This document shows positions 4,206 to 28,433 of a stretch of DNA of 45,574 nt, one piece after another (the stretch's first letter is position 1; every line of letters begins with the position of its first letter). This DNA is from Candidatus Micrarchaeota archaeon. Its GTDB lineage: Archaea; Micrarchaeota; Micrarchaeia; Norongarragalinales; Norongarragalinaceae. A program made the translations under genes and the position numbers. The stretch covers positions 1 through 45,574 of the forward strand of contig JBBIMI010000005.1 in NCBI GenBank assembly GCA_037444485.1. The letters are read 5' to 3'. A model generated the notes under the pieces. That model was not told the DNA's origin, ran no database searches, and was given only the letters and a program-made list of their open reading frames with translations.

Positions 4206-4464
4206 TGGGCCCGCCGGGATTTTCGTCCGCCTTTCTTTCTTTTCCAAGGTTTTTTCTTTTCCTAAAAGAAAAAAGCTTTTTTTCAAGGTTTTTTCTTTTC
4301 CTAAAAGAAAAAAGCTTTTTTTCAAGGTTTTTTCTTTTCCTAAAAGAAAAAAGCTTTTTTTCGAACCCGGGAACCTTTCGATTTCTGCCTTATTCAGCTT
4401 GGTTATCAGTCTCGTTTTCCCTCGCGGGAATCGAACGCTCTAAACCAGGCTGAGCTACGGGCCC
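4206..4464 (-). tRNA. tRNA-Ile(GAT) with three introns: 30/31 (4411-4431, 21 nt), 37/38 (4383-4403, 21 nt) and 59/60 (4220-4359, 140 nt)
   Basis: Spliced 77 nt cloverleaf GGGCCCG TA GCTC AGCCTGGTTTA GAGC G TTCGA CTGATAA TCGAA AGGTTC CCGGG TTCGAAT CCCGG CGGGCCC A; BHB central helices CGTT/AACG and TTCG/CGAA; the 37/38 motif is relaxed; CCA not encoded. Confidence 0.88.
4245..4361. repeat. 3 x 39 bp tandem hairpin repeat filling most of the tRNA-Ile T-loop intron
   Basis: Units start at 4245, 4284 and 4323; each contains the hairpin AAGGTTTTTTCTTTT-CCT-AAAAGAAAAAAGCTT followed by a T run. Confidence 0.95.
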
Positions 4465-4602
4465 ACGCTTAAAAAATTTAAAAAAATTAAAAAATTTTGT
4501 GCAGCAAAGTTTTTTAACGTATGCAAATTTTTAACACATGCAAAAAAAGTTTTTTTTGATGCACGCAAAAGTGTGTTGCAAGTGCTACAAGTGCTACAAG
4601 CG

Positions 4603-7600
4603 CTACAAGTAGTTCGCGAGACTAAACTGTTTTTTTGACTCGTCTTCAAACATTCCCGCAATTTCTTTCTCTAGCAGCATCAAGCGTTGTTTTAAGTAAA
4701 GCGGCAGCCCGTATTTTTCCGCTATTTCCTGCGAAATCTTGAGGTATTTTTCGGCGCTTGCTTTGCTGACCGTCAACAACAAGCGGCCGCCGCACTTCAA
4801 ACACTTTCCTGCAAGTGGAGCGCGTCGGTAACGCGCGTTGCAATCAACGCAACGCAACGACTGCTTCGAATACCGCCGCAGGTTCCCATACAAGTCCGGG
4901 AAAAAATGTGAAATAATGAGTCTCTCTGCAGCGTCGCTCGCATCTACAGCGCGAATCCTCGTCATCAACGCGAGTTCGTCCTCAACTTTTTCACGCATGT
5001 TTTTTAACTGGACGTACTTAGTTTGCAGTGGTCCTTCTATTCGCGCGTCGTGCGTAAAACCGATTCCCTCGAACTGCGAGGGCGTGCCGAGACGCGTTGA
5101 AACCAAGTCGAGCTTAACTTCACTCGGGTTTGCAAGCCGCTGCGTCGCTTCGTAAAACTCGAGCGGGTACTCGCTGCATGCTTCCATCGAATGCGCTTCG
5201 CGGTCGATTTCGTTTGGGTCGAGCTCTTGAATTAAAACTAACGGCGCATCCATCTGTCCGCCGCGCGACGCCGGCAGGTAATGGCGTGAAAAGTTGAGGA
5301 ACGCGTCCATTAAAAGCATTACCGCGTCCTCGTCGCCGTCGCAATTGCGTCTCGTCGCGCAGTGCAAGTAGGGGTGTGCTAGAATTCCTTGAACGTCGCT
5401 GAAGCCAATCACGCGCGCGACGATTCCAGCGCTAGTGTGTGGAGCGATTACGATAACTGCTTGCCCAACTAAATCGTGGGGAGTTCGCGCGTTGTAATAC
5501 GCTGGTAGTCCGTAGTAATAAACGAGTAAGTCGTCGACGAACTTTGAGACTCGCAACAAGTAATCGCCAGCGTTTTTCGACAACACCACATCTTGGGGAA
5601 ACAATTCGATTAACTGCTCGTCGCTATCTAGCGGCTTGCCGAGATAGTCTCTCGCGTAACCCAATCGTTTCACGTCTTCAACGCTCGCTCCAATCTCGCG
5701 GGACGTAAAGTGCGTTAAAGGAATTTCGGTTGCGTCGTGGCGAATCGTGCCGTCGCGGAACACGTTTACCTCGTGCTTGCTGCGCAGGATTCCTTTTTCA
5801 AGCGGCTCTATAGTCTTGTCGAGCGAAATCAAGCCGACCACGCCTTTGACTGTTGAAGGAGTGAAGTTAACGCGTTTGCTTGCATCCTCAAATTGTTTGA
5901 CTAAATCAACCCGCGTTTTTTCGAAGTCAACCAACTTCCCGCCGCACTTTTCGCACTTGCGGCCGTCTCCGCGCTCGCGCTGCGCGCTAACGTTGTTCAG
6001 CGTTTCAACGACGCCTACGTCGACGATGTTGACGCCGCTTTCGCCGCTAGCCGCGTTTTTGTTTTCACGAGTTTTTTTATCGCGTGGTTTTAATTTGTCG
6101 CGTGGTGTTAACGCGTGGCACGACGCGCACTCGCTTGCAACTAGCGTTTTTCCGCCGCACGCGCTGCACGCGAACGCGAAATTTTTTTTTCCGCACTCGA
6201 CGCAAGCGCGAATGCTTGCTTCAACTTCAATGAATTGTTCGTTCTTGTTTTTTTTCTTTAACTCGCGTGCAGCTCGCGCGATGTCGCGCGTCTTGCCGCC
6301 GTTCCAACCAATTGGGTAGAGGGCATGCACCGGCGGCTTCATTTCGCGTGGCTTGCTTTTCTCTGGCCTGCCCATGCTCGCGCCGATGTACGTGCCTGTC
6401 TTCGCGCGGATTTTGAAGGGCGCGATCGAGTTTATTAAGGCTAGCACGTTGTTTTCGCTTTCTGTTGCAGGCGCCGGCGTTACCGGGTTTTCTATGGTGG
6501 CTTGTTGGCTTTGCTTGAATTCGTTGATTGCTTGCAGGATTTTTTTGTTGGAGATTTTCTTGGTTTTAGCGTCGAAGAGCGCAAGCGTTTCAAGCAACGC
6601 GAGCGCGTGTTCTTTTTCGATTACTACTTCGCCTTCGCTTACTGAGTGCGGCACGCACAGCATTTCAAGGATTTCTTTCCTGTCGTCTAACGGCGCGTGC
6701 AAGCGTTTGGGTTCAAACCAATCGTATTCGAGCGTGCTTTCGCCGAGGTATTCAGCGAGACGCTTTAATTGTTCGAGCGTTAAATCACTCCAAAAAAACG
6801 TGTGCGCTGGAGCTAGAGGCACGCCGGTTTCGAGTGCGAGTTTCTTCGCTTGAGCGAAAGAGAGCGCGCGGAGTTCTTCAATTGTTTTCTTGACTTCTTT
6901 CGCTTGGAGTTCGCGTTGCATCCATTCCTCGCACCATCCGGAAGGCGCGAGCGGGTGGTTTGTTTGTTTGAAGTCGCCGTAAGTAGTAAGCAAATCGCCT
7001 AAAAACAAGATTTTTTTAACGCGTGGCTTTACTTGAAGTGCTTCATCCACCGAGTTTACTTGCATTACTTTTCCGTCTTCAAGCAATACGACTGGCGGTT
7101 CAAGCGCGCTGCAAGGCGTGATGACGCACGCTTTCCCAGGCCGTTCAGTCTTCAACTGCGTGCCGAAAGCCGGAAAATCGTCGAGCAACGTCATCGCAGC
7201 CGGGTGCGTTGCCTTCGCTTGAATTCCAGTAAAGCGCGTGCGGCCGTAACGCAAGCGAAAACCACCTGGACGCATTGGGTGCGAGAAAATTGGTCTCCCA
7301 CCAACTATCTCGTCCATGTATTTTCGCAATGGTTTTATTTCTACGCGTTGCACTTCTTGTTTGGCGACTTTAATGAGTTTCTCGAGCCAACCCCAGTCTA
7401 AACCAAGCTTGCGGGCGATTGACAGCACTTTCGCTGCTTTCAAGCAAATTCCTTCACTGATTACGAGGTACACTCCGCCGCGCACGCGGTTTGACTCAAC
7501 TCCCGGAAGGTTGCGGTGCACGCTCACTTCGTAATCTTCAGTCGGCTCGCCATCAATGCGCACCGGACAATTCGAGACAACGTGCCTTACTTCATCTTCG

Positions 7601-8277: not shown

Positions 8278-8516
8278 TTGAATCAAAAACCGTTTCGTTT
8301 TTTTTCGTTTTTTCTCGTTAGTTTCTTTTAATCGCGGCGTTTGCCGGGGAGTGGTTCAAGCAGGGTTCGAGTTCGAGTTTCACTCGAAGTTTTCACTCGA
8401 AGTTGTTGGGTTTGCTTCGTGTTTGCTTCAGTTTGCTTTAGATTTGATTGTAGTGTTTTGAGTTGAGTGCTTGAGTTCGAGTGGTTAAGTTCGGGTGGCA
8501 TGTTGTAGTCAAGCGA

Positions 8517-10118
8517 TCAAGCGAAATTAAGTGTTTTCACTACTCCTGACTGCAAGTCGTATACTGGCAAAAGGCACGGCGTTACGACGTGCCCTTGTTT
8601 TACTTGGTACTCTGTTTTTTCCTGCCAAGTTCCAGAATTGATTATTGTCGTGCCGCGGTATTCGGCGTAACCATTCTTGTGCACGTGCCCAAAGTGCAGG
8701 ATGTCTGGCGTGTTCGAAATCACGAGCGCGTCGCGCTCTGTTGGAAGAAGCGGCTTGTCGCCGTATACTGGCGCGAGGTGCCGCCTTCGAAGCATTTCTA
8801 TTCCAATGAGTTCCGGGTGTTGATAACCGTTCGACGCGTTCAACCCTGAAACTATGGAGTCAACTGAATTGCCGTGATACATTAAAACGCGCACTCCATG
8901 CAATTCTACTTGAACTGGGTTCGGCGCGAAGTGAATGTTTTCGCGCTCGCCGAGGCTCTTCACGAGTTCAAACGGCAAGCTCGGCTGCGGCTCCGCAACG
9001 CGTACAGCATCATGGTTTCCTGGAATCACGACGACTTCAATCCATTCCGGAATCGCTTTCAGCAATTCACAGAAAATCTCGTACTGCGCGTAAATGTCTT
9101 TAGTCACCAGCTCGCGTTCTTGCGCGGGATAAACGCCGATTCCGTCCGCCAAATCGCCTGCAACGAGCAAATACTTTATTTTTCCCGCCACGATTTTTTC
9201 CTCTTCACCGCAATCGCCGTTCAAGAATTTCAATAAACGCTGAAAGTTTTCGTGAAGAAACTTTTTGTTTCCAACATGCAGGTCACTCAAAAACGCGGCG
9301 GACACTCCTTCAACGCCGTTCGTCTCGCTAGCGCTCACTAGGTTCTTCTGGCGGTATTCAACGTCAGGCCAAGAAAGCCCGCATGCTATAAACAAGCCGT
9401 TACTGTAATAACCGTCGACTGCAATCACTTCATCGTAAAGCAGTGAAGCAGCCTGCGCGCGCAAAGGCGAGTCTCTAGCAAAAAGCGTTGGCAGAATGCC
9501 TTCCTCGTCTTCGAGGTCTACGAGCAAGTGACCGTTTTTCGTCTCGCGCTTGTTGTAAACCAATCCGATGACGCGCACGTTCTTCCGCCCGCCTGCAAAC
9601 GCGTTTGCGTTTGCGACTACAGTCGCGTTCGAACGGACTTCGCTCGTTGTAAGAAACGCGTTTTCAGTAGAGCGCGAGCGCAGAATCCAGCTCAACCGCT
9701 TGAACCTGTCACGAAAAAAAGCTATGAAATCGTCGGCTTGGTTTTTGCATTTTTTTTCGACTTCAGGTTCCGGAAAACGAAGGTGCGAGTCAACGTTCTT
9801 CGCTTCAGCATCGAATTCTTTTGAGGTTTGTTCCACTACAACTTGTGTTTGAACCGCCTGCAATGCCTTCCGCTCGACGTCCAACGATTCTATTAATTCG
9901 CTTGCGAGCGCGTGCGTGACGATGAAGTTTCCCCGTTGCTTGCATAATTCGATTGCCTTGCGCGCGAGGTCAAGCGCTTCGACTTCTCCCCGTTCGGCAA
10001 GGCACGCTAGCGCTTCACTATCAATCAAAAGCTTGTGTGAGAAAATCAAGCGCTTCAAGGATTCGGTTAAGAGAGGGTCTGGACTCTCGCTGCCTGCAGT
10101 TTCATTCAAAAAACCCAC
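8517..10118 (-). CDS. polB: DNA polymerase D small subunit DP1 (proofreading exonuclease)
   Basis: OB fold plus calcineurin-like motifs SDLHVG, GDLADGIGVYP, PGNHD, YHG, HLAP and GHVH; adjacent to DP2. Confidence 0.96.
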   Translation of the reverse strand: MGFLNETAGSESPDPLLTESLKRLIFSHKLLIDSEALACLAERGEVEALDLARKAIELCKQRGNFIVTHALASELIESLDVERKALQAVQTQVVVEQTSKEFDAEAKNVDSHLRFPEPEVEKKCKNQADDFIAFFRDRFKRLSWILRSRSTENAFLTTSEVRSNATVVANANAFAGGRKNVRVIGLVYNKRETKNGHLLVDLEDEEGILPTLFARDSPLRAQAASLLYDEVIAVDGYYSNGLFIACGLSWPDVEYRQKNLVSASETNGVEGVSAAFLSDLHVGNKKFLHENFQRLLKFLNGDCGEEEKIVAGKIKYLLVAGDLADGIGVYPAQERELVTKDIYAQYEIFCELLKAIPEWIEVVVIPGNHDAVRVAEPQPSLPFELVKSLGERENIHFAPNPVQVELHGVRVLMYHGNSVDSIVSGLNASNGYQHPELIGIEMLRRRHLAPVYGDKPLLPTERDALVISNTPDILHFGHVHKNGYAEYRGTTIINSGTWQEKTEYQVKQGHVVTPCLLPVYDLQSGVVKTLNFA

Positions 10119-10296
10119 CGTTTCAAAAAACCAGCTTTATTGAAGCTAGCGACTAAATGCTTTTTGAAAAAAGTGGTTAAAAAAACTTGCGGCTGTTTAA
10201 TGGGTTCAAGCCTTCCCTCTCTTTACTTGCCTGAAACAATTTTTTTTAACGCGTTTGATTAAACTCTTTTTTGGCTTTTTTGAGGTATGTTCAACT

Positions 10297-11055
10297 TCAA
10301 GCTTGCTGGTTTTCCTGGTTTTCTGGTAGCTTGCTTGTTTCTAGTTTCCTGGTTTTCGGCTTAAACATTATCGCGATGTGATTTGCTTGGTCGAACCACT
10401 CGGAGTATTCTTTAACTAGTTTGTTGTACGCTGTGTCTTTGCGTTCCTGCGTTTTTTTCCCGCTAAGCCCAGTAAACCAACCGCCCCCAGGCGTTTTTAC
10501 CGCGTATTTCGAGACTTTAAGGCCAGCGTCTAAAGCGATTTTATTAATTTTCGGAAACTGTAAGTCGAACGCTTTTTTCGTGTACGATCCTATTTGCGGC
10601 GTGAACGCTTGAAAGTTTATCAAGGGACTATTGTCTTGAAAAACGTGGTAGAAAAACCCGCCAGGTTTCAGAAATTTGGCTATCACTTTCAACGCTTCCG
10701 GGCCTTTTTCATTCACTCCAAGAAAAGGGGGCGGCATGTGAACGTGAATCTCGTCAAACTTTTCAAGGTTTTCCTTGCCGAGAATTTCAGTCAACTGTTT
10801 CCCGAGTTTTCCCGGATCACTCAAGTCTAACGCTTTTTCTATAAAATTTTCTTTCAAGCGCCCTTGTTTTTCGCGCCCTTGTTTTTCGTACGGCTGGGGC
10901 TTGCCTTCAATCTTCGCGTCTATTCCAGTGTACTCTAAAATCTTGCCCGAATGTAAAAGTTTTGAATAGCGTTCGTAAATTGGTTTTCTTGCTACTGCTT
11001 TAGGCCCGCAGAACAAGTCAAGGATTTTGTAGGGGGACTTTCCCGTAACGACCAC
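10297..11055 (-). CDS. Hypothetical protein, possible divergent class I SAM-dependent methyltransferase
   Basis: KILDLFCG (motif I-like), FDEIHVHMPPP and LKPGGFFY; more AT-rich than its neighbours by eye. Confidence 0.5.
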   Translation of the reverse strand: MVVTGKSPYKILDLFCGPKAVARKPIYERYSKLLHSGKILEYTGIDAKIEGKPQPYEKQGREKQGRLKENFIEKALDLSDPGKLGKQLTEILGKENLEKFDEIHVHMPPPFLGVNEKGPEALKVIAKFLKPGGFFYHVFQDNSPLINFQAFTPQIGSYTKKAFDLQFPKINKIALDAGLKVSKYAVKTPGGGWFTGLSGKKTQERKDTAYNKLVKEYSEWFDQANHIAIMFKPKTRKLETSKLPENQENQQA

Positions 11056-11069
11056 TCAATCAACCGCGT

Positions 11070-11393
11070 TCAGTTTTCTTGAATTACTTCCTGCTTTAAC
11101 GCTTCCAATTCGCTCAACAAGTTCCAAACCATCGTGCGCGCGTGCGTAGGCAAGTTGATGTCGTTACTGATTTCGTCAAGCGCGTAAATCGCGCTGCTTA
11201 ACGCGGTAGGCAAGTCGCTCTTCGCTTCCTCGCCGCCCAGCTTTGCGCGCGCGTCCCCAAGTCTCGCGCGGACGTTGCGTGGCACGCTCGAGTCTTCCAC
11301 GAGGGAGTCGAGCACGGATATTATCTGCAATAGTTTTTTCTGCACGGTGTCTGTCACGAGAATCACGTCCGTCGTCAACCCAAAAATCGTCAA
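11070..11393 (-). CDS. UPF0147 family protein
   Basis: DSSVPRNVR and LDEISNDINLPTHARTMVWNLLSELE; start uncertain. Confidence 0.88.
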   Translation of the reverse strand: MTIFGLTTDVILVTDTVQKKLLQIISVLDSLVEDSSVPRNVRARLGDARAKLGGEEAKSDLPTALSSAIYALDEISNDINLPTHARTMVWNLLSELEALKQEVIQEN

Positions 11394-11889
11394 CCCAAAA
11401 AGTTACTAAAAAAGTTATTTGCATAAATTGCATAAGTTATTGTGGTTATCGTTATTTGCGGTTATTCGCATTTTACCAGCATTTTACCCGCATTTTTTGC
11501 GTTAATCCCGTTAATTGCGTTAACTGCGTTAATCAGTTCGTGAACTGGTTTAAGGTTTATTAAGTTTTAAGTTGATTAATTGTTTTTTTAACACGCGCTT
11601 GCTTTAATTTAAACGTGTTTGCTTAAATAATTTAAACGTGTTTGCTTAAATATTCTTCTATTTATTTGATTTTTTCCCCAGTTTTTAGTTTTTTAGTATT
11701 TTTTTAGTATTTTTGCGTTTAGTTTTTTGAGTTTTTTGTTCGTGATAGTGGTTTTGAAAATGTTCGTGATAGTGGTTTTGAAAAACGTGCTTGCCTGAAT
11801 TTAAATACATGCTTGCTTAAATATTTTTTTATTTAATTTTTCAGTGTTTTTCAGTTTTTGCGCGTGATAGTGGATTCGAGGCTTCGAAA

Positions 11890-13152
11890 ATGAATTTCGC
11901 TTTATTGAAAAATCTATTAGATTCCGGGGTTGAAGGCAGGGTGGTGTTGACGCGCGTTGACGTCAACGCGCCTGTCGAGAACGGCGTTGTCAGCGACTCA
12001 CCCCGCTTCACGGAATGCGCGCAGACGCTGCGCGCTCTCGCCGCTGGCGGCGCGCGCGTGGTTGTTCTCGCGCACCAAGGCAGGCCGGGAGGCGAGGATT
12101 TTCTTTCGCTCGCGCAGCATGCGGCTCTGCTTTCAAAGCGCGTGAAAAAGAAAGTCAAGTTCGCCGACGACTTGTTTAGCTCGCGCGCATTAAACGAAAT
12201 AAAAAAGCTAAAGAATGGAAAGTTGTTGTTGCTTGAAAACACGCGTTTTTATTCAGAGGAATTGCTTGAAGCGCCGCCTGAAAAGCTCGCGCAAACGCTT
12301 TTCGTGAAAACCTTGGCGAGCGCAGCGAATGCGGCGAGCGCGGGCGGCGTGGGCGCGTTCGTGAATGAAGCGTTCAGCGTTTCACACCGCGCGCAAGCGT
12401 CCATCGTCGGCTTTCCGGAATTGCTGCCTTCATTCGCTGGACTCGCGTTGGAACGCGAGGTCGGCGCGCTCGAGCGCGCGACTACGCTCGCAGAGAGGCC
12501 TGTAGTGTTCGTGTTCGGCGGGGGAAAGCCCGACGATTGCTTTAAAATATTGAAGAACTCGTTGGAAAAGGAAATCGTTGACAAAGTGCTTTTGGGTGGC
12601 GTGATTGGAGAGTTGGCGTTGCTCGCGCAAGGCAAAGACATAGGCGTGAAGCGTGCGTTCCTCGAAGAAAAAGGTTTTGCGAAAATCGTGTTAGAGTTGA
12701 AGGTGGTTCTCGAAAAGTTCGGCGCGCGCATCGAGTTGCCGCGTGACTTGGCGTTCGCTGACGCGGACGGCGTTCGCGTTGAAGTGCCTGTCGACCAGGC
12801 GAGTGGTTTGAAGGCGCGTGTGGGCGACGTCGGCAGCGTAACGGCAAACGCTTTCGCTAACGCGTTAAAGCAAGCGAAGACCGTTTACTTTAAAGGCCCG
12901 CTTGGAGAATTCGAAAAGCCGGCGTTCGAATTAGGAACTCGCGTTGTGTTGAAGGCGATCGTCGACTCTAAAGCGTTTTCTTTGGTTGGCGGAGGGCATT
13001 CGATGGCTGCAATCGAAAAATTTGGTTTCAACAAGAAAAAATTTGGGCACGCAAGCAACGCTGGCGGCGCGCTCGTCTCGTTCCTGAGCGGCGAGAAGCT
13101 GCCTGGACTCGCCGCGCTCGAGAAGGCGTTCGAACGCGGTAAACAAGGTTAA
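11890..13152 (+). CDS. pgk: Phosphoglycerate kinase (archaeal type)
   Basis: RVDVNAP, LAHQGRPG, LLENTRF, AFSVSHR, GGGHS and SNAGGA..FLSGEKLPGL. Confidence 0.95.
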   Translation: MNFALLKNLLDSGVEGRVVLTRVDVNAPVENGVVSDSPRFTECAQTLRALAAGGARVVVLAHQGRPGGEDFLSLAQHAALLSKRVKKKVKFADDLFSSRALNEIKKLKNGKLLLLENTRFYSEELLEAPPEKLAQTLFVKTLASAANAASAGGVGAFVNEAFSVSHRAQASIVGFPELLPSFAGLALEREVGALERATTLAERPVVFVFGGGKPDDCFKILKNSLEKEIVDKVLLGGVIGELALLAQGKDIGVKRAFLEEKGFAKIVLELKVVLEKFGARIELPRDLAFADADGVRVEVPVDQASGLKARVGDVGSVTANAFANALKQAKTVYFKGPLGEFEKPAFELGTRVVLKAIVDSKAFSLVGGGHSMAAIEKFGFNKKKFGHASNAGGALVSFLSGEKLPGLAALEKAFERGKQG

Positions 13153-13271
13153 ACTGGAAAAAAGCTGGAAAAGAAAGAAAAAAGAATAAAAAAGAAGGAA
13201 AAAAAATAGGGTGGATTGCGCGCTTTCGCGCGCTCCAACAAAAAACAACTTTTCATATTTTGCTTATTTTC

Positions 13272-13424
13272 TTATTTTGACGACAGGCCGCAGCTCTTTA
13301 CGTGCCTCCAAAGCTTTTTCGTCATTTCGCTCGGCGTTATCGCACTGCCGCCGAACACGTCCTTGCACGAGTGCGGGCACTTGCCGAACGAAATCGTGTA
13401 CCCGCCAAACGGTTTTCTAGCCAT
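13272..13424 (-). CDS. Small SWIB/MDM2-like protein (50 aa; missed by ORF track)
   Basis: Manual translation MARKPFGGYTISFGKCPHSCKDVFGGSAITPSEMTKKLWRHVKSCGLSSK; AGGTGA RBS; xSEMTKKLWxxVKxxGL resembles the SWIB helix. Confidence 0.7.
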   Translation of the reverse strand: MARKPFGGYTISFGKCPHSCKDVFGGSAITPSEMTKKLWRHVKSCGLSSK

Positions 13425-13663
13425 TTTTTTGTTTTCACCTTTCCCCAACCCAGAGAACTTGAGTTCCCCGAGTTAAAATCAGTGAATGCTGTTACGAAAA
13501 AAACATTTAAAAACCTATTCATAGAAGAAAACGAGGAAAAAACGTTTTTAAACAAGGAAGAAAACGAGAAAACATAGAGGAGAGAAAGCGAGAAAAAAGG
13601 GGAAGAAAAAAGGGGAAGGAAACAAGAAAAAGAGAGGAAACGAGAAAATGCTGTAATGTTGAA

Positions 13664-13819
13664 AGCCCCCGGCGAGATTTGAACTCGCGACCTTCTGTTT
13701 CCGCGCTTTCACTCTTCTCTTCCAAGTTTTTTCAATGTTTTCTTTTTTCCAAGGTTTTTTCTTTTCCCAAAAGAAAAAAGCTTTACGAGACAGACGCTCT
13801 ACCTCTGAGCTACGGAGGC
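13664..13819 (-). tRNA. tRNA-Thr(CGT) with an 84 nt intron at 37/38 (13700-13783)
   Basis: Spliced 72 nt cloverleaf GCCTCCG TA GCTC AGAGGTA GAGC G TCTGT CTCGTAA ACAGA AGGTC GCGAG TTCAAAT CTCGC CGGGGGC T; CCA not encoded. Confidence 0.92.
13720..13783. repeat. Single copy of the hairpin repeat plus its T-rich flank, inside the tRNA-Thr intron
   Basis: AAGGTTTTTTCTTTT-CCC-AAAAGAAAAAAGCTT; 13720-13758 is identical to 27452-27490. Confidence 0.93.
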
Positions 13820-13999
13820 GTTGTGTGCCGAATACAACAAAACGAATACAACAAAAACTTTTTTAGTGCTTTCGCCGCAATCTTTACAAACACTTTTTTA
13901 CAAACACTTTATATTCTTTATTTCCGCCTAATAAAAACTTTTGATTTTTTTGTGTTTTTGATTTTTGTGTTTTTGATTTTTTGGTGTGATGCTGCAAAA

Positions 14000-14869: not shown

Positions 14870-14985
14870 CGCTTTCTTGACGCTTTACATTAACCTGCGA
14901 AAACGCTTCAACGTTTAACTGCAACGATTTTTTTTCGAAATGTTTTTCGAAATGTTTTTTAACGCTTGAAGCGTTCTCTTTACTC

Positions 14986-17900: not shown

Positions 17901-20900
17901 ATCAAGCAACTTGACGCCCTTAATTGTTTCTTACTCTGTTGAAGTCTTCAAGCCGCTTGCCGCGTATTCCGGAATGGCTTTCCAATTCAACGAAACCGAC
18001 TTAAAGATTTTCAACGCGAGCACGCCCTTGCCTCCAGAGGGTTTCGAGTGCAAGAACGGCGCTTACTACGTTCTTCCAGACAACAAGACGAAAAGCAATT
18101 TGACTGAAGTGCCGTTCGACGCCTTCAAAAATCCGCTCGTGTTCGACTACAGCCGCCTGCGCGATTGCTACGATTACCCGCCGCTCGGCGGTCCATCAAA
18201 ACAAAAACCTTACTCTTTCAGCGGCGTTCTTTACGCGCTTCCATGGAGCGCTACAGAACACAGCGACTTTAAAACCTTTTTCGCGACAGCAGAATCGCCT
18301 GGCTCGATAACCCCTGAAAACACTGTAACTCACGAATCTTGGTTGAAGATAATCCCGGCTTTTCCGGCCGCTCCACCGCTCTCGCTCTTGACGCTATTGT
18401 TAAGCCAAACGCAGAATGGGGCGTTACGCGAAGAAACTATTGATTCAAGCGAACCATTCAACGCTACCCCAATTAACGCCAGCGAACCATTCATTCCCCT
18501 CGACAGTAACACGAGCCTGGTTTCAGCACGCTTTAACGCGGTGCTCCAGCGCAACGCGTTCGACAACGTTTTCTCGCTTGAAGTGCCGGACTGCAAGCCT
18601 TACTGCCGCGCAGCGCTGAAGGTGGTAGGAGTCGAGTACGGCGGAAAGAATTACACGCGTGCGGACGGCACCGAATTCGACACTGAAGACGGAAAGAAAA
18701 TCGCGTTGAGCGAGGATTACTCGCGCGCCGAGATTCGCGCCGGCGATTTGAGTGAAGGTGACGAGTTCAATGCGTCATTCCTGCTCGCGCCGCTTTCCAT
18801 CGAAGTAGGAGGCTTGCTGGCGTTAAGCCAAATCGTGTTAAAACACGAAGCGCGCGAAGCGAACGGCACGCAGCTCGCGCCAACGCAACGCCAACCGAAA
18901 ACCATCTTGATTCCAGGCGCGAACGTTTCAACGATAAGCTATTTTGCTCCAGGAATAGACAATTGCGGTGGAGCTATTCACGTGAATTACAATACTGCAG
19001 TTAGCTTGCTGAATTTCCAGCAAGGCTGCACCGACTTAGGATTCCGCATCACTCCAATTCTCCCAGCAGACGCGGTTTTCACTAGCGTGAATTCCACTGT
19101 CACGCTACTCGTCAAACCAATCGCTGGCGACTTGAACGCAGTAAATTGTTTTGAATCGTGCAGCGTGGACGACGCTGGAAACGTTGGCGGATGCGCGCCA
19201 GGCTTTAGCGCACTCACCAACACAGGCAGTTACGTTCTGCGTTACAACACTGAATCAGCCTCGTGTCCAGAAGACTTCAAGCTCGTCGGTACTAACAAAC
19301 TCCGCGGCGCAGAACTAACTCTCACCATCAGCGCGCCTGGAGTGCCTGAAGAATTCGCGAAAAAACTCAAGATTCACGTCGTCGCTGAAACAAAACAGGA
19401 AAGCTTGTACGTCGCACCGATTTACGTGAGCTACTCGCTGAAAAGCAAAGGCGAAAAGAAAGCGGTTTACCCGCAAGTCTGGAGCGTCGTAAACCACAAG
19501 CAAATCGGTTCGCGTAGAATAGTAGTCGCTGAACCAGGCGGAGGCGAACTAGAATTCGCTTTCGACGGGCCAGGCACCCAATTCTTTGCTTTCGCGCCAA
19601 CAGGCGGAGCAGAGGGAATAAAAGTTTACGAGATAATGCCGAGCGGTTCACGCAAGCTCGTTCTCGACTCAGAGAACGGCGAGGAAGGCGCGTTAACGCA
19701 AAGCGAGTACTTTGAAGCATTAAAGAAAGATTCAGACAAGCGCTTCGTAAACGCGGTACTGGATTGCGACGAAAACGATTCGAATTGCGTGAAGAACAAG
19801 CAACGGTTCGCTGAATACAACGCGAAAAGCAAGCAACTCTCGAACGAATTCTTGAAAATGCTTTCAGGCAACGAGCCCTTCAACAAAAACATTTTCCAGA
19901 AAATCCGAGAGAAAGCCAAGAAAATCGCGAACACGACTGTCTTCTGGCGCAGTTTTCAACAACAACTATATTGCCGCAACGCGGACGACAACGGCGTTCC
20001 ATGCGTCGGCCGAAGCACTGATCCAGCGTGCTGCAGAGGCTCTATTTACGACTGGGTTAACGTCACCACGCAAAACACGTTCGGCTTACAACAATGCGTT
20101 TTCTGCAACAATACTTGGCGCGGAAACCCGCCAGTATCATGCGAACAAGAAAGCGAGGAATACTTGCCGTGCACGAACCAACCAATAGCAGTGTTCAACT
20201 GCGACCAACGCTGCACTCCGGAAGGAATCGCGTCAGTCAACGACGGCGACTGGATTATTGTTGGAGGTTCAACAAAATACTGTGAAGCTTCAAAGTACAA
20301 GGGAATAACTTCGATAAGTGAGGCTGACGTTCAAGCATGCAAGGAAAACGCGTGTCCAATCGAGTTCGACGACTCTGAAAAACCGTTTTGTTACGCGGAC
20401 TCGAACGGCAACGGGTTCATCGACTTCAACCTAGAAGGCGATTCAATAGAGCCGGCCAGCGCAAGCGAAGGCGTTTACTCTTGCGCGAACGGAAAGAAAA
20501 TAGCGGTTTCAAAAGAATGCGTTGCGTCGTGCGACAACTGGTGCATCGGCCGCACTGAATGCGATTATGCTTGCGGCGAGGACGGCGTCAAGCCAGTTGA
20601 AACTGGTTCGCAGGAAGTGCTCGGCGAAACGCCTGCAGGCGTGAAGCTAGTGACTGTAAAGCTTGACTCAAGCGACCCCGCGTACCAAAAATACAAGCTC
20701 TTGCCGAGGAAAATGTTTTCAGAGTACGGCGACCCATCCAAGTTCCTCTACCATTATTCAATCAACTCTGTCGGCTTCAAGCAAGGGAAAGCTGTTTCAT
20801 TAAAACAAGAACTCGGCTTGAGTGAAGTGAAAGGCTGCAGTGAAACGCAAAAGTACGTTGATGAAGGTTCTTTCCTCATAACGCAGGAAAACGTTCCGGA

Positions 20901-21801: not shown

Positions 21802-22127
21802 AACGCCGCTAAACACTAAAACGCTGAACTAAAACGCGCTTCAAAAAAACTTGGCGCTTGAAAAAACCGCATTATAAAAACCGCGTATCGCATTCAAAAA
21901 CCGCGCTCTAAAAAAGAATTTGTTGGCTTTCCCACGCCAAAAAAACGCTTGAAGCCAATTCTTGTTCTTGTTTTGTTTAACTGTTTTGTTTTTGTTCTTT
22001 TTTTGTTTTTGTTTTTTGTTTAGTTGTTTTTGTTTTTTTGTTTAACTGTTTTGCTGTTTTATTTTTGTTTTGATTTTTTTAACTGAAAACCAATGTTTTT
22101 ATTAGCGTAATTGGTTGATTTTTATTC

Positions 22128-26492: not shown

Positions 26493-26732
26493 GCCTCGGG
26501 AGAAAAGGCTTTTTAAACAAGGTTTCCGTAATGAATTTTGGTTTTTCGTAATAAAATTTCGGCGCTTGAATTACAGCGTTTTAACCCGCTTTAGTTTTTT
26601 TTGTTTCAAGCGCTTGAAGCAAACACAAAACAAAATACAAAAAGCTTGCACAAAACTGGAAAAGCGAAAAAAAAGCGTGAAAATTAGTTTGAAAAATAGC
26701 TTGAATTAAAGGGTTTGAGGTGATTTCAAGAA

Positions 26733-27413
26733 ATGGCTTGGGAGGTAGTGAAAGCGAAACTACTTCAAGCATTGACTAACGCTTGGGCTAGCTTCGTCAA
26801 CGCGTTCGCAGATTTAGTTATCCTCGTTGGTTTTCTAATAATCGGTTACATTGTCGGGCGCTTCATAAGCTACCTAGCAAAAAACTTTTTGAAGCGCGTC
26901 AAGTTCGAGGAATGGCTTGAAGAACGCGGGATTGCTGACGCGTTGCCTGGCTTCACGCTCACAAGCGTTTTCGATAAAGTAATCAAACTCGTTACAATCG
27001 CCGTGTTCCTTGGAATCGCGGTTGAGGCCGTCCAACTAGTGTTCGTACGCGACTTAGTAACGTGGTTTATCTGGTACGTGCCGCTGCTCTTGCAGGGACT
27101 CGCAATCTTGATTCTCGCCCTAATAGGCGGGGACTACGTGACAGACCGCATTAAAGCAAGCCACATTCCGTTCGCGCGCTTCATAGGAGTGGCTTTCGAA
27201 GTACTAGTCGTGTACACCGCGCTCGTGATTGCCCTCCCACTGATTCTACCGAATGCTGACGTGGAAATACTCAAAAACGCGTTCACGCTAATAATCACTG
27301 GCGTGGTTGTAGCGTTTTCGCTGGGATTCGCGATCGCGTTCGGACTCGGCGCGAAAGACGTCGTGCGAGACGTAGCGAAAAAGAAAGAGAAAGACTTGGA
27401 GAAACTCTTTTAA
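26733..27413 (+). CDS. Conserved TM-helix repeat membrane protein (MscS-associated/CmpX-like)
   Basis: Two internal repeats (LIIGYIVGRFI / LALIGGDYV); ends GFAIAFGLGAKD; GAGGTGA RBS. Confidence 0.75.
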   Translation: MAWEVVKAKLLQALTNAWASFVNAFADLVILVGFLIIGYIVGRFISYLAKNFLKRVKFEEWLEERGIADALPGFTLTSVFDKVIKLVTIAVFLGIAVEAVQLVFVRDLVTWFIWYVPLLLQGLAILILALIGGDYVTDRIKASHIPFARFIGVAFEVLVVYTALVIALPLILPNADVEILKNAFTLIITGVVVAFSLGFAIAFGLGAKDVVRDVAKKKEKDLEKLF

Positions 27414-27451
27414 GCCCGCTTCCCCCCAACTTTTCCTTTTTTCTTTCTTTT

Positions 27452-27595
27452 TTCCAAGTTTTTTCAATGTTTTCTTTTTTCCAAGGTTTTCTTTCTTTTC
27501 CAAGAAAGAAAAGCTTTTTTCCAAGGTTTTCTTTCTTTTCCAAGAAAGAAAAGCTTTTTTCCAAGGTTTTTTCTTTTCCTAAAAGAAAAAAGCTT
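27452..27595. repeat. Intergenic array of the same hairpin repeat (two 40 bp variant units, one tRNA-Ile-type unit and the T-rich flank) between convergent genes
   Basis: Units at 27481 and 27521 (AAGGTTTTCTTTCTT-TTCC-AAGAAAGAAAAGCTT) and at 27561 (hairpin identical to the tRNA-Ile unit). Confidence 0.95.
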
Positions 27596-28433
27596 AAGCG
27601 GCAGCGCCAGTGCTTTCAATGAAAGCTGCTGCTGCAAGGAAGAGAATCGCCCAACCAGTGAGCTTAGCAGCATCGTAAACCACGTGAAAGAATTCGAGTT
27701 TGTTTATCTTGCGCGTTACAATCGCGTGACTCAAAATGCCGCCCGCCAGCGCGCCAGTGCTGTACGCGAGCAATTCGAACACTCCATGCGGAAAAATGCC
27801 AAGCGCGCTTGCGCCCGCCAACGCGCTTCCACTTTTTTTCGCGATGCTGCCGAGAAAAACGCCTATGATGGATGCATTCCAAGTCAACACGAAAACCGCG
27901 CCAGCGCCGTACAACAACGAAAAACCTATCGCGAGCAAGAGGACTTGCAGGTTGTGCAGGAAGACGAGTTCGAACGCGTTTAAAAACTTTTCACTCAAAA
28001 AAGCGCCGGCCAAGCGTGACGAAACCGCGCGCACGTTCTCGAGCTCAGCGGTTTGAATCGCGAACAATTTCTTGCTTTCTTCGCTTGGCAACGCGTAGTA
28101 CCACGCGGTGAATGCGAGCGTCAACCCGAAGAAGAATGCTGTGAAAGAGATTATGGCGGGCGCGTGCCGCGCGAGCGTTGTAGAGCCGAGAAAGCGTTTC
28201 GCTTCGCGCGCTTCACGCTCGTCGTAATTCACTAGGTTTAGGAAGAAGGGAATTGAAGGAATTATAGTGAAAACGAGCAGCAGCAAGTCGCTTGACTCGC
28301 TCAAGTTGATGAATCGAGTTACTAGCACGGCGATTGAAGCGAACGCGGCGCTTACCGCGATTATAGTAAACGGGTTTTTCCGCGCTGCTTCAGCGCCGAC
28401 GATAGCCTCGAGAACCAAAACCGCCACTCCCAC
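27594..28433 (-). CDS. SpoIIM/DUF95-family membrane protein
   Basis: FLHNLQV, WNASIIG, PHGVFELLAY..GALAGG and AAFIE. Confidence 0.85.
   Translation of the reverse strand: MGVAVLVLEAIVGAEAARKNPFTIIAVSAAFASIAVLVTRFINLSESSDLLLLVFTIIPSIPFFLNLVNYDEREAREAKRFLGSTTLARHAPAIISFTAFFFGLTLAFTAWYYALPSEESKKLFAIQTAELENVRAVSSRLAGAFLSEKFLNAFELVFLHNLQVLLLAIGFSLLYGAGAVFVLTWNASIIGVFLGSIAKKSGSALAGASALGIFPHGVFELLAYSTGALAGGILSHAIVTRKINKLEFFHVVYDAAKLTGWAILFLAAAAFIESTGAAA

What the first reader, a model, noticed from the sequence alone, without database searches (positions are those of the whole stretch)
4220..27596. Dispersed REP-like hairpin repeat family that occupies tRNA introns
Seen directly: one 39-40 bp unit (AAGG-T6-C-T4-loop-A4-G-A6-GCTT) makes up most of the 140 nt T-loop intron of tRNA-Ile (3 copies) and much of the 84 nt anticodon intron of tRNA-Thr (1 copy). 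It also forms a 3-copy intergenic array at 27481-27595. These are two different tRNAs, two different intron positions and one non-tRNA site. Thr-intron 13720-13758 and intergenic 27452-27490 are identical over 39 bp. Inference: a small non-autonomous mobile or structured element that uses BHB-spliced introns as safe harbours, or excised introns that reinsert elsewhere. Either would be a route for tRNA intron growth and spread that I do not recognise as described. No transposase or target-site duplication is visible here.
Basis: partly seen in the sequence, partly recalled or inferred. Interest (0 to 1): 0.9.

Follow-up and report, generated by a model that had tools for sequence, protein, structure and literature searches.

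The report
Hairpin cassette shared by archaeal introns
A small U/A-rich hairpin sequence has multiplied through a tiny archaeon's genome. It sits at the start of introns in tRNA, ribosomal RNA and one protein gene, and also directly behind stop codons, which gives a rare live example for asking how archaeal introns spread.

Summary
The window is a whole contig of a 0.96-Mb Candidatus Micrarchaeota genome. The 33-nt U-tract/A-tract hairpin occurs at 27 loci genome-wide, four of them in the window. It is always in the sense direction of the host transcript, and its AAGC end always lies at a boundary. That boundary is the 5' splice junction of 12 tRNA introns, 5 rRNA insertions and one rtcB mRNA intron, or a point -2 to +7 nt from the stop codon of 9 protein genes. 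Removing the insertions restores a tRNA, the 16S sequence of relatives and the RtcB frame. Relatives have empty sites. The U-arm forms the intron-internal helix (h') of a bulge-helix-bulge (BHB) splice motif, and the genome encodes an epsilon2-type splicing endonuclease. Copies at different kinds of site are up to 96.6% identical over 116 nt. Related hairpins head tRNA introns in other genomes of the order. There is no reverse transcriptase, and the IS200-type transposase has unrelated hairpins. Best reading: a portable, proliferating BHB-intron cassette. This is a Micrarchaeota version of 'intron transposition', extended to rRNA, mRNA and 3'-UTR sites. There are no RNA data, and the copying mechanism is unknown.

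The parts
48..209 (+). Ribosomal protein S27e gene. Its TGA stop is directly followed by a family unit.
   Evidence: Pfam Ribosomal_S27e, E 1.2e-19, profile 3-54 of 55. Sequence.
210..238 (+). Degenerate family unit, sense to S27e, starting right after the stop codon. The same locus is seen again on the overlapping end of contig C2.
   Evidence: nhmmer E 1.2e-4. Context. C2 1-351 matches C5 351-1 at 99.1%.
4205..4464 (-). tRNA gene, most likely tRNA-Ile(GAU), with three insertions of 21, 21 and 140 nt.
   Evidence: ARAGORN calls tRNA-Ile(gat), 78 nt, after scripted removal of the three insertions. Its alternative one-intron parse gives Trp(cca). The first 29 nt lie at 4436-4464.
4220..4359 (-). 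140-nt insertion in the T-loop (position about 58/59-59/60). It is read as a relaxed BHB intron: T-loop UUCG can pair with CGAA near the 3' end of the insertion.
   Evidence: Searches give the length and show that a tRNA is restored. One search gives the fold. The strict BHB scan did not find it.
4246..4356 (-). Three identical tandem hairpin units with a 39-nt period. Hairpins lie at 4246-4278, 4285-4317 and 4324-4356. In the RNA sense they read AAGC-U6CU4-loop-A4GA6-CCUU.
13664..13819 (-). tRNA-Thr(CGU) gene with a canonical-position (37/38) intron.
   Evidence: Rfam tRNA 55.5 bits. ARAGORN Thr(cgt) i(36,84).
13700..13783 (-). 84-nt BHB intron. The hairpin unit at 13751-13783 starts at the 5' splice site. 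The 3' end carries GAAAGC (partner of the U-arm, helix h') and then GCGG (pairs with anticodon-loop UCGU).
   Evidence: Strict BHB scan gives H UCGU/GCGG, bulges AAA/AAA, h' 6 bp and an 84-nt intron. MFE fold. The gene is intronless in 3 relatives.
13720..13758 (-). 39-nt block identical to 27452-27490. It covers the tail module (GGAAAAAAGAAAACAUUGAAAAAACUUGGAA in the sense direction) plus the edge of the hairpin.
27414..27596 (-). Non-intron copy of the cassette between convergent genes. In the sense of the minus-strand gene it runs: one A-type unit, two B-type units, then a purine-rich tail. The AA of the gene's TAA stop is the AA of the first AAGC.
   Evidence: gap from stop to AAGC = -2. 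The strict BHB scan found no credible splice motif.
27483..27595 (-). The three hairpins of that array: 27483-27516 and 27523-27556 (B-type) and 27563-27595 (A-type).
27594..28433 (-). SpoIIM-family membrane protein gene, complete. The cassette abuts its stop codon.
   Evidence: Pfam SpoIIM, profile 2-159 of 163. Orthologues in 24 of 25 genomes of the family.
26733..27413 (+). Convergent neighbour: a small protein with a mechanosensitive-channel TM helix.
   Evidence: Pfam MS_channel_1st_1. The same convergent pair occurs in relatives L079 and L081, with an 80-130-nt purine-rich spacer and no hairpin.

Best explanation
The repeat is a portable cassette of bulge-helix-bulge (BHB) introns in a Candidatus Micrarchaeota genome.

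**How it works in RNA**
- In the RNA sense each copy starts with AAGC followed by a U-tract arm.
- This arm pairs either with its own A-tract arm or with a GAAA(A)GC element at the far end of the insertion.
- The resulting helix is the intron-internal helix (h') that lies next to the 5' splice-site bulge.
- A few site-specific nucleotides at the 3' end of the insertion pair with the last exon nucleotides to form the central 4-bp helix.
- The genome's epsilon2-type splicing endonuclease would then cut in the two bulges, and RtcB would join the exons.

**How it multiplies (inferred)**
- Locally, by tandem duplication of the 39-40-nt unit.
- Between loci, by copying 5'-anchored blocks of 40-140 nt into new transcribed sites.
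- I think the copying most likely happens at the DNA level, as 'intron transposition' or repair-type copy-insertion. Selection would then leave only sense-oriented copies that can be spliced out (tRNA, 16S, 23S, rtcB) or that lie just past a stop codon.

**Shown versus inferred**
- Shown: the family, its placement and orientation, empty sites in relatives, restoration of host sequences on removal, the BHB geometry at several loci, hairpin covariation, and the presence of EndA and RtcB.
- Inferred: that the insertions are spliced, that the post-stop copies are dead-end or neutral landings, and the route of copying.
For: **Family and placement**
- 27 loci, all in the sense direction of the host transcript: 12 intron loci in 11 tRNA genes, 5 rRNA insertions, rtcB intron 1 and 9 post-stop loci.
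- No copy with nhmmer E<0.01 was found in any other context.
- The AAGC end sits where host homology breaks. The BLAST blocks shared with relatives end at 23S q828, q1929 and q4966, and the hairpins start at q829, q1930 and q4966.

**Removal restores the host gene**
- 16S: the predicted 95-nt excision gives GGGGCTATGGGAG|TAGGAGCCCC. All 6 relatives that I could locate (of 11 loci) are uninterrupted there, and 2 of the 6 are identical across the junction.
- rtcB: three pieces tile Pfam RtcB at 1-24, 26-47 and 48-426. A 51-nt excision rebuilds the Tyr codon.
- tRNAs.

**Splice motif**
- A strict BHB (4-bp helix between two 3-nt bulges) has the U-arm as h' at five loci, with intron lengths that match independent expectation:
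  - rtcB: 51 nt, h' 12 bp
  - 16S: 95 nt, h' 12 bp
  - 23S q1930: 109 nt, h' 11 bp
  - tRNA-Thr: 84 nt
  - tRNA-Glu: 42 nt
.
- At random genome positions, h' of 10 bp or more occurs in 21 of 3000 cases.

**Empty sites in relatives**
- tRNA-Thr(CGU) is intronless in 3 of the 4 relatives where it was found.
- The 16S and 23S insertions are absent in G003, G010 and others.

**Recent copying between kinds of site**
- The tRNA C34 intron and the post-stop C29 copy are 96.6% identical over 116 nt, with 82 nt exact from the first A of AAGC.
- The introns of two different tRNAs (C21 and C4) are 92.2% identical over 141 nt.

**Hairpin is maintained**
- 95.8% of cells are paired.
- 10 of 14 pairs show changes on both sides.
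- 0 of 500 shuffles reach the observed values.

**Splicing machinery**
- A 388-aa EndA matches PDB 4fz2 over its full length, E 6.8e-128.
- RtcB is present.

**Same module in other genomes**
- 20 of 67 other genomes of the order match.
- I read 10 clean copies; 9 are in tRNA genes, starting at the break, and 1 is post-stop.
- The exact 30-nt arms occur in 4 of 400 other genomes of the phylum sample, with a reversed-pattern control of 0. The three copies from the distant family lie in interrupted tRNA genes, two of them clearly starting a T-loop intron.
Against: - No RNA evidence at all. Only the probable source run holds this DNA, RNA runs hold 0.10 or less of the sampled words, and nothing could be laid.
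- None of the 5 T-loop loci gave the expected junction in the strict BHB scan. They need the relaxed motif that ARMAN-2 EndA is reported to cut.
- The strict-scan background is not small: h' of 6 bp or more occurs at 488 of 3000 random positions.
- The 9 post-stop copies are not explained by an intron model. Their placement within -2 to +7 nt of a stop codon points to targeting or function.
- No enzyme for mobility was found:
  - No RVT_1 match in a 95%-complete genome.
  - No long repeated DDE-type element.
  - Unrelated IS200 hairpins.
- No clear target-site duplication.
- Site 1 of rtcB is also occupied in two relatives by introns without this module. The module can therefore enter or replace the inside of an existing intron.
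- Exact conservation of the arms in a distant family could reflect function rather than mobility.
- From general knowledge of archaeal termination at oligo-T, U6 tracts inside tRNA and rRNA genes should be costly. This is unexplained.
- The tandem copy numbers in this MAG are unverified.
Confidence: 0.55

Rival explanations
1. RNA-mediated mobility. The mobile form is the excised or cleaved intron RNA, whose 5' end is made by EndA. RtcB ligates it into other cleaved transcripts, including mRNAs cut at or near the stop codon, and the chimeric RNA is copied back into DNA.
For: - All 27 of 27 loci are in the sense direction, including non-intron loci.
- Homology between an intron copy and a post-stop copy starts exactly at AAGC, which is the predicted EndA cut. 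The 12 nt upstream are unrelated.
- The shared blocks are 5'-anchored, with variable 3' extent.
- The hosts are transcripts expected to be abundant: tRNA, rRNA, S27e, the rpoB-rpoA spacer, FtsZ and rtcB.
- EndA and RtcB ends are chemically compatible (general knowledge; circular introns are discussed in the passages).
Against: - No reverse transcriptase (RVT_1) in a 95%-complete genome.
- Each intron copy has its own exon-matching 3' tail, which a simple reinsertion does not supply.
- No such reverse reaction is documented, to my knowledge.
- The orientation bias could come from selection against the U-richer antisense strand inside operons.
Confidence: 0.15
2. MITE/REP-like DNA transposon. 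This would be a non-autonomous hairpin-ended element moved in trans by a transposase (for example the IS200/IS605 Y1 enzyme or an unsampled one). It would land widely and survive only inside spliceable positions or just past stop codons.
For: - The ends are inverted-repeat-like: AAGCTTTTCTTTC at the 5' end and GAAAG(A)AAAGC(T) near the 3' end in many copies.
- The size is 40-180 nt.
- The taxonomic distribution is patchy while the sequence is identical.
- Y1 transposase fragments occur at 4 places and a TnpB-like gene at 1.
Against: - The IS200-type ends carry GC-rich hairpins unrelated to the family.
- No Y1 gene is flanked by family units.
- There is no conserved target in the 4 nt upstream.
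- No consistent target-site duplication and no conserved 3' terminus.
- Only one orientation is seen.
- The G-U pairs in the central helices point to an RNA-level fit.
Confidence: 0.12
3. A selected RNA module rather than a selfish element. On this reading the hairpin is kept because it does a job: a fast-folding clamp that presents the splice site to EndA, and a 3'-end or intercistronic stabiliser (REP-like in function) after stop codons. Similar copies would reflect duplication plus purifying selection.
For: - Strong covariation.
- Exact conservation of the arms across distant families.
- Strict placement at the splice-site bulge and at stop codons.
- Three consecutive genes on C29 each carry one.
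- One copy sits between rpoB and rpoA.
Against: - Most introns and most genes of this genome lack it.
- Orthologous sites in relatives are simply empty.
- Copy number in arrays varies from 1 to 4 identical units, which looks like slippage and not design.
- A terminator role is unlikely, given 5 copies inside the rRNA genes.
Confidence: 0.15
4. Artefact or chance: low-complexity A/T-rich spacer sequence, replication-slippage products, or misassembly of a metagenome bin.
For: - Intergenic DNA of this genome and of its relatives is generally purine-rich low-complexity sequence.
- Contigs break at repeats.
- Tandem copy numbers could not be checked.
Against: - 0 of 100 shuffles reach the observed count.
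- The reversed-pattern controls give 0 in 401 genomes.
- The flanking tRNA halves match each other across every insertion.
- One locus is assembled twice from strain variants.
- The same module heads introns in other, independently assembled genomes.
Confidence: 0.03

Closest known systems
tRNA intron families of Thermoproteales ('large-scale intron transposition', Fujishima et al. 2010)
   Same: - Highly similar short BHB introns occur in different tRNA genes and at different positions of one genome.
- They are gained late.
- They are limited to places where a BHB can form.
- The copying mechanism is unknown.

My sources are a review passage and a preprint section reporting that 28.3% of 272 Thermoproteales introns fall in families of at least 80% identity spanning tRNA types. 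The original paper is not held.
   Different: - The phylum is different (DPANN/Micrarchaeota, with an epsilon2 EndA).
- The family also fills 16S and 23S insertions, an mRNA intron and non-intron post-stop sites.
- It has a defined modular U/A hairpin with tandem amplification.
- The module is shared across distant families.

I do not know whether the 2010 study looked outside tRNA genes.
Disrupted tRNA genes and epsilon2 splicing endonuclease of ARMAN-2 (Ca. Micrarchaeum acidiphilum)
   Same: - Same phylum.
- 56% of tRNA genes are disrupted.
- Introns occur at non-canonical sites including 59/60 in the T-loop.
- The enzyme cuts strict and relaxed BHB motifs in vitro (passages of PMC3239211).
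- The EndA of this genome matches PDB 4fz2 over its full length. I recall that entry as the ARMAN-2 enzyme.
   Different: - The ARMAN-2 introns tested there were 13 and 25 nt.
- The word 'repeat' does not occur in that paper (0 hits).
- No shared intron family and no rRNA or mRNA copies are mentioned in the passages I saw.
REP/BIME elements and their RAYT transposases in bacteria (recalled, no call)
   Same: - Imperfect palindromes of about 35 nt.
- Dispersed and clustered in arrays.
- Located just after stop codons or between cistrons.
   Different: - No RAYT-like gene is flanked by the units.
- Only a single orientation is seen.
- Most copies are inside genes as removable insertions.
- The host is an archaeon.
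Introner elements: transposon-like repeat families that create spliceosomal introns in some algae and fungi (recalled, no call)
   Same: - A repeat family whose copies are introns.
- The element brings part of the splice signal with it.
- Recent bursts occur, with near-identical copies.
   Different: - Those are spliceosomal introns in eukaryotic protein genes. Here the splicing is protein-only BHB splicing, mainly in RNA genes.
- No transposase link has been found here.
BHB intron in the cbf5 pre-mRNA of Crenarchaeota
   Same: A protein-coding gene is interrupted by a short BHB intron that is removed by the tRNA splicing enzymes. My sources are the search listing of PMC2738675 and the introduction passage of PMC5829648.
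   Different: - The gene here is rtcB, the ligase of the same pathway, and it carries two introns.
- The phylum is different.
- One of the two introns carries the repeat family.

Membership tests
Archaeal BHB (EndA/RtcB-spliced) introns | The insertion interrupts a functional RNA or gene, and its removal restores the conserved sequence. | tested here: met
   - 16S: removal of 95 nt gives the sequence of relatives.
- 23S: the blocks are contiguous in relatives.
- rtcB: the Pfam profile is tiled 1-24, 26-47 and 48-426, and the Tyr codon is rebuilt.
- tRNA-Thr and tRNA-Ile are restored.
Archaeal BHB (EndA/RtcB-spliced) introns | A bulge-helix-bulge motif (two 3-nt bulges around a 4-bp helix) at the exon-intron junctions. 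| tested here: inconclusive
   - The strict motif, with cuts that match expectation, is found at 5 of 18 intron loci (rtcB, 16S, 23S q1930, tRNA-Thr, tRNA-Glu), plus one plausible case (C21).
- None of the 5 T-loop loci meets it.
- Random background: h' of 10 bp or more at 21 of 3000 positions, h' of 6 bp or more at 488 of 3000.
- Relaxed motifs are accepted by the ARMAN-2 enzyme.
Archaeal BHB (EndA/RtcB-spliced) introns | The host encodes the splicing endonuclease and the RtcB ligase. | tested here: met
   - EndA: G000:C2:52992-53468, a 388-aa ORF with two PF01974 hits and a full-length match to 4fz2.
- rtcB lies on C30.
Archaeal BHB (EndA/RtcB-spliced) introns | Excision is seen in RNA (spliced exons, circular intron). 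| not testable with these tools
Intron-transposition families (Thermoproteales type) | Introns at least 70-80% identical occur in different tRNA types or positions of one genome. | tested here: met
   - C21 versus C4 introns: 92.2% over 141 nt.
- T-loop versus other positions: 85-94% over 90-130 nt.
- 12 loci in 11 tRNA genes.
REP elements with RAYT (HUH Y1) transposase | A Y1 transposase gene flanked by, and recognising, the same hairpins. | tested here: not met
   Four Y1_Tnp matches were found. Their element ends carry GC-rich hairpins unrelated to the family. None is flanked by family units; the nearest (C19) is 1.4 kb away, on one side only.
REP elements with RAYT (HUH Y1) transposase | Extragenic palindromes in both orientations (BIME-type arrays). 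| tested here: not met
   18 of 27 loci lie inside genes, and all 27 have one orientation relative to the transcript.
MITE (non-autonomous DNA transposon) | Terminal inverted repeats. | tested here: inconclusive
   AAGCTTTTCTTTC at the 5' end and GAAAG(A)AAAGC(T) near the 3' end are seen in many intron copies but not in all post-stop copies. The same pairing is what the splice motif needs.
MITE (non-autonomous DNA transposon) | Target-site duplication, and a related autonomous element with the same ends. | tested here: not met
   - There is no consistent direct repeat. Junction ambiguities are 2-3 nt of A or GAG.
- GCTTAA flanks the 27414-27596 copy only.
- Self-BLAST shows no long repeat other than IS200-like pieces and contig-end overlaps.
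Intrinsic transcription terminators (oligo-T after the stop codon) | Found at the ends of transcription units and not inside them. | tested here: not met
   - 5 loci lie inside the 16S and 23S genes and 12 inside tRNA genes.
- One lies between rpoB and rpoA.

The most novel reading that the evidence does not exclude
Archaeal BHB introns can move through RNA. An intron released by the splicing endonuclease, with a 5' end at AAGC, would be ligated by RtcB into other cleaved transcripts, always in sense. The targets would include rRNA, the ligase's own mRNA, and mRNAs cut at the stop codon. The result would then become fixed in DNA. This would make the splicing enzymes themselves the 'transposase' of a retro-type element in a genome without a recognisable reverse transcriptase.
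Probability: 0.15. Interest if true: 0.95.

Novelty: new variant of a known kind. Interest (0 to 1): 0.75.

Why it matters
How archaeal BHB introns arrive at new sites is an open question. A review calls the mechanism unknown, and a 2026 preprint on Asgard tRNA introns ends with 'how they arrive remains open' (abstract; section 2.5).

This genome has several features that make the question testable:
- **A young family.** Copies are up to 96.6% identical.
- **A defined 5' terminus.** Every copy starts at AAGC.
- **A recognisable splice-motif module.**
- **Copies outside introns.** These could preserve the form in which the element travels.
- **Several RNA classes are linked by one element:** tRNA, rRNA and mRNA introns.
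- **A self-referential case.** The ligase gene rtcB appears to need the splicing pathway for its own mRNA.

There is also a practical consequence. tRNA and rRNA finders miss or mis-type these genes. Default ARAGORN finds 0 tRNAs in the window, and the 16S spans 2959 nt for a 1478-nt model.

Tried and rejected
**Ideas tested and set aside**
1. **Terminator reading.** Rejected. The units lie inside the rRNA and tRNA genes and in the rpoB-rpoA spacer.
2. **REP/RAYT or IS200 link.** Y1 transposase copies exist, but their hairpins are unrelated. The TnpB-like gene was not followed further.
3. **Reverse transcriptase.** No RVT_1 match. Other polymerase families were not searched.
4. **Post-stop copies as 3'-terminal mRNA introns.**
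   - The SpoIIM-like, S27e, RpoB and FtsZ proteins are complete at their C-termini by Pfam.
   - The strict BHB scan gave only low-scoring or misplaced candidates.
5. **Target-site duplication of TTAA at overlapping convergent stop codons (27414-27596).** Two relatives with the same gene pair have an 80-130-nt purine-rich spacer and no overlapping stops. The idea is not supported.
6. **Duplication of a palindromic target as the origin of the central helix.** This fits rtcB intron 2 (GGCU on both sides) and, in part, the T-loop sites. It does not fit Thr, 16S, 23S or rtcB intron 1.
7. **Orthologue of tRNA-Ile(GAU) in relatives.** The 29-nt pattern found only other tRNA types in 3 of 25 genomes. 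No empty-site test was possible for the T-loop insertion.

8. **RNA evidence.** Only run X1, the probable source, holds the rRNA stretch (share 0.98). The six RNA runs hold 0.07-0.10 of the words, which is the level of a relative's conserved rRNA. This is no evidence either way.
9. **Read laying.** The assembly and the copy numbers are therefore unchecked.
10. **The search of earlier findings.** Closed.

**Literature**
- The Fujishima 2010 paper is not held.
- Supplements of the ARMAN and Asgard papers were not seen. They may list intron sequences that bear on novelty.
- Searches found no paper describing this hairpin family, introns in rtcB, or intron-like repeats outside introns in Micrarchaeota. 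The library lacks most subscription journals.

Full report
**What the window is.** The window is the whole of contig C5 of a 961,727-base, 58-contig genome bin. The bin is rated 95% complete and 0.2% contaminated. Close relatives of its RtcB protein come from records titled Candidatus Micrarchaeota archaeon: 10 of 17 loci returned. It is therefore a small DPANN archaeon. Default ARAGORN finds no tRNA in the window. With introns allowed it finds 32 tRNAs in the genome, many with introns of 84-218 nt. Rfam finds 27.

**The observation.**
- The 15-mer AAGGTTTTTTCTTTT, with up to 2 mismatches, occurs 11 times in the window. Shuffles give a mean of 1.72, and 0 of 100 shuffles reach 11.
- Three identical 39-nt units fill 4246-4362.
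- They lie in a 140-nt insertion (4220-4359) in the T-loop of a minus-strand tRNA. The tRNA becomes recognisable once 138-141 nt are removed.
- It reads as tRNA-Ile(GAT) when two 21-nt insertions beside the anticodon loop are removed as well. ARAGORN's own single-intron parse gives Trp(CCA).
- I favour Ile. No other Ile(GAU) was predicted, and a good Trp(CCA) exists on C1.
- tRNA-Thr(CGU) at 13664-13819 has an 84-nt intron at 37/38 that begins with the hairpin.
- 13720-13758 equals 27452-27490 over exactly 39 nt.
- The array at 27483-27595 holds two units of a second type plus one of the first. It lies between convergent, complete genes.
- A fourth, degenerate copy lies at 210-238, right after the stop of ribosomal protein S27e.

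**The family in the genome.** A regex for perfect or near-perfect hairpins finds 37 units. An nhmmer profile adds a few more. Read in the direction of the host transcript, all copies start AAGC-U-rich arm and end A-rich arm-CCUU. I count 27 loci:

| Kind of site | Loci |
|---|---|
| Intron loci in 11 tRNA genes (T-loop x5, anticodon loop, D-region, position about 26) | 12 |
| Insertions in the single rRNA operon (16S q304; 23S q829, q1930, q2571, q4966) | 5 |
| Intron in rtcB | 1 |
| Directly downstream of stop codons | 9 |

- No copy with E<0.01 lies in any other context or in antisense.
- There are two main unit types: arms U6CU4/A4GA6 and U4CU3CU2/A2GA3GA4. They differ by compensating changes.
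- In an alignment of 45 units (33 distinct) from this genome and its relatives:
  - 95.8% of cells are paired.
  - 10 of 14 pairs show changes on both sides.
  - No shuffle of 500, and no slid register, comes close.

**They are insertions, and removable ones.**
- *16S.* The gene spans 2959 nt for a 1478-position model. Relatives align in four blocks that are contiguous in their own genomes, leaving three G000-specific insertions.
- *23S.* This gene has at least nine insertions relative to G003 and others.
- *Where the hairpins start.* Those that carry the family start with it exactly where the shared block ends (q829, q1930, q4966/7; 16S q304-307). The exception is q2571, where the last aligned block ends 46 nt earlier.
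- *16S junction.* Cutting at the predicted sites removes 95 nt and gives the junction found in relatives. My regex located the region in 6 of 11 relatives' loci. All 6 are uninterrupted, and 2 are identical across the junction.
- *tRNA-Thr(CGU).* It was found in 4 of 25 family genomes. It is intronless in 3. In the fourth (G022) it carries an intron at the same place with a related hairpin.
- *rtcB.* The gene is in three pieces that tile the Pfam profile at 1-24, 26-47 and 48-426.
  - Insertion 1 is 51 nt, contains an in-frame TAA and holds a family hairpin.
  - Insertion 2 is about 35 nt and shifts the frame.
- *rtcB in relatives.* Of the 12 relatives' loci I read:
  - 6 are uninterrupted.
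  - 2 have a different short insertion at site 1.
  - 1 has a short insertion at site 2.
  - 3 have an intein nearby.

**How they would be spliced.**
- A strict scan (4-bp helix, two 3-nt bulges, an intron-internal helix of at least 4 bp starting right after the 5' bulge) finds motifs whose cuts reproduce the independently expected intron at five loci:

| Locus | Intron length | h' helix |
|---|---|---|
| rtcB intron 1 | 51 nt | 12 bp |
| 16S | 95 nt | 12 bp |
| 23S q1930 | 109 nt | 11 bp |
| tRNA-Thr | 84 nt | 6 bp |
| tRNA-Glu on C28 | 42 nt | 4 bp |

- A sixth motif (C21, 139 nt) is plausible.
- In each case the 5' strand of the intron-internal helix is the AAGC/U-arm. The 3' strand is either the unit's own A-arm (single-unit introns) or a GAAA(A)GC element near the 3' end. 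This is followed by 4 nt that pair with the exon, often through G-U pairs.
- At random positions, a helix of 10 bp or more arises in 21 of 3000 cases, and one of 6 bp or more in 488 of 3000. The weight therefore lies on the long helices and on the exact restoration of host sequence.
- The five T-loop loci do not pass the strict scan. They show T-loop UUCG opposite CGAA, CGAG, CGGA or CGGG near the 3' end. This resembles the relaxed 59/60 introns that the ARMAN-2 enzyme cuts in vitro (passages).
- The genome's EndA is a 388-aa protein that matches PDB 4fz2 end to end. From memory, that entry is the epsilon2 enzyme of ARMAN-2.
- The relatives' rtcB insertions are strict BHBs too: L011 at 27 nt and L013 at 33 nt, both restoring the frame.

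**The copies outside introns.**
- Nine loci sit -2, -2, -2, -2, 0, 0, +2, +5 and +7 nt from the last base of the stop codon of a same-strand gene (and for S27e). The spacers there are about 100-500 nt long.
- The host genes are S27e, a KH/Pno1-like protein, RpoB (the copy lies between rpoB and the 1150-codon ORF that follows), FtsZ, the SpoIIM-like gene of the window, a gene on C13, and three consecutive small genes on C29.
- The C-termini are complete by Pfam where a family matched. No credible splice motif was found.
- Two relatives with the window's convergent gene pair have a purine-rich spacer without hairpins.
- I cannot explain the tight stop-codon placement. Targeting, function (REP-like stabiliser) or an RNA-level event remain open.

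**Signs of recent copying.**
- The intron of the C34 tRNA and the post-stop copy at C29 6848 are 96.6% identical over 116 nt. They are exact for 82 nt from the first A of AAGC, while the 12 nt upstream are unrelated.
- The introns of two different tRNAs (C21 and C4) at the same structural position are 92.2% identical over 141 nt.
- A 23S insertion is 94.6% identical over 93 nt to both a T-loop intron and a post-stop copy.
- Homology is anchored at the 5' end and stops at varying distances.
- Arrays of 3-4 identical units (window 4246-4362, C1, C16) point to local slippage.

**Beyond this genome.**
- The first hairpin type, with up to 3 mismatches, is almost private. G000 has 18 forward hits, only 2 of 40 relatives have one hit each, and the controls give 0.
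- A 127-nt query from the window's array matches 20 of 67 other genomes of the order at E<=1e-4.
- Of 28 loci fetched, my regex found clean hairpins in 10. By my reading of the flanks, 9 start an interruption of a tRNA gene and 1 follows a stop codon.
- The exact 30 nt of the second type occur in 4 of 400 other genomes of a phylum-wide sample. These are G005 and 3 of 5 genomes of a family in another order. The reversed-pattern control gives 0 of 401.
- The three distant copies again lie inside interrupted tRNA genes. Two of them clearly start a T-loop intron.
- G005 has a copy in a tRNA-Leu(UAA) intron (L039). ARAGORN predicts an intronless tRNA-Leu(taa) in G000. Occupancy therefore differs between genera.

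**What could move it.**
- There is no RVT_1 match.
- Y1 (IS200-type) transposase matches occur at 4 places, mostly at contig ends, and there is one TnpB-like gene.
- The IS ends carry GC-rich hairpins unrelated to the family.
- Self-BLAST shows no other long repeat that could be an autonomous partner.

**Comparison with what is known.**
- Similar introns in different tRNAs of one genome are described for Thermoproteales as 'intron transposition', with an unknown mechanism (review passage; preprint section).
- ARMAN-2 tRNAs are known to be heavily interrupted.
- In the passages and listings I saw, BHB introns in mRNA are known for cbf5 only.
- I found nothing on this hairpin family, on rtcB introns, or on intron-like repeats at non-intron sites in Micrarchaeota. 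I could not read the 2010 paper or any supplements.

**Verdict.**
- It is best filed as a new variant of a known kind: a BHB-intron family that spreads between sites. Here it has a defined hairpin module and extends to rRNA, an mRNA and post-stop positions.
- What it is: I put about 0.85 on 'module of BHB introns'.
- How it spreads: my leaning is about 0.5 for DNA-level copy-insertion with selection, 0.15 for an RNA route, 0.12 for a transposase-driven MITE, and 0.15 for mainly functional conservation.
- Nothing here has RNA or read support. That is the main weakness.

Noticed in passing
L002 (G000:C30) about 2999-3049 and 3126-3160; relatives L007, L011, L013: rtcB, the tRNA ligase gene, is split by two short BHB-type insertions of 51 nt and about 35 nt. 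Site 1 is also occupied in two other Micrarchaeota records, and site 2 in one. The ligase mRNA would therefore need the splicing pathway that the ligase itself serves. I found no report of this.
   Followed up: partly
L009, L015, L016 (rtcB of other Micrarchaeota): An intein-like insertion (ending ...HNF.ANG..VSN) sits between DINC and CGVRLL of RtcB.
   Followed up: no
L001 (G000:C12) 8289-16722 and beyond: The single rRNA operon is heavily interrupted. The 16S has 3 insertions (95, about 77 and about 1273 nt). The 23S has at least 9 relative to G003, including ones of 722 and 912 nt. Only 5 of them carry the hairpin family. The large ones were not examined for ORFs or group I features.
   Followed up: partly
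G000:C12 about 20590-20790 (minus strand): A tRNA-Ala(UGC) lies between the 16S and the 23S. It has an anticodon-loop insertion holding a different U/A hairpin, a T-loop insertion holding a GC-rich hairpin, and another U/A hairpin right after its 3' end.
   Followed up: no
G000:C12 11535-11772: One tRNA, read by eye as Glu(CUC), carries two separate family introns, one in the D-loop and one at the anticodon loop. ARAGORN calls it Leu(aag) with a single 158-nt intron, and it mis-types several other genes (for example C12 11304-11471 as Trp).
   Followed up: partly
G000:C17 3-206, C19 8278-8950, C26 95-199, C27 81-185, C3 4252-4600, C12 1-237: An IS200-type element (Y1 transposase) is present in several copies. 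Most are at contig ends, and the C19 copy looks degraded.
   Followed up: partly
window 1-351 and G000:C2 1-351: The two contig ends are reverse complements of each other at 99.1% identity. C2 and C5 are probably neighbours, or strain variants of one locus.
   Followed up: no
L070, L072, L074 (relatives G020, G018, G006): A second copy of the tRNA 3' end lies 100-200 nt downstream of the tRNA gene. This is the pattern left by an element integrated into a tRNA gene.
   Followed up: no
window 32675-32888 and 45397-45471: Other direct repeats occur in the window (about 150 nt at 89.7%, plus exact 25-mers). They are unrelated to the hairpin family.
   Followed up: no
window 4150-4205 versus 4246-4356: T6-T7 runs follow the tRNA gene, as expected for archaeal termination. 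Yet three U6CU4 tracts lie inside the same gene's insertion. How transcription reads through them is unexplained.
   Followed up: no
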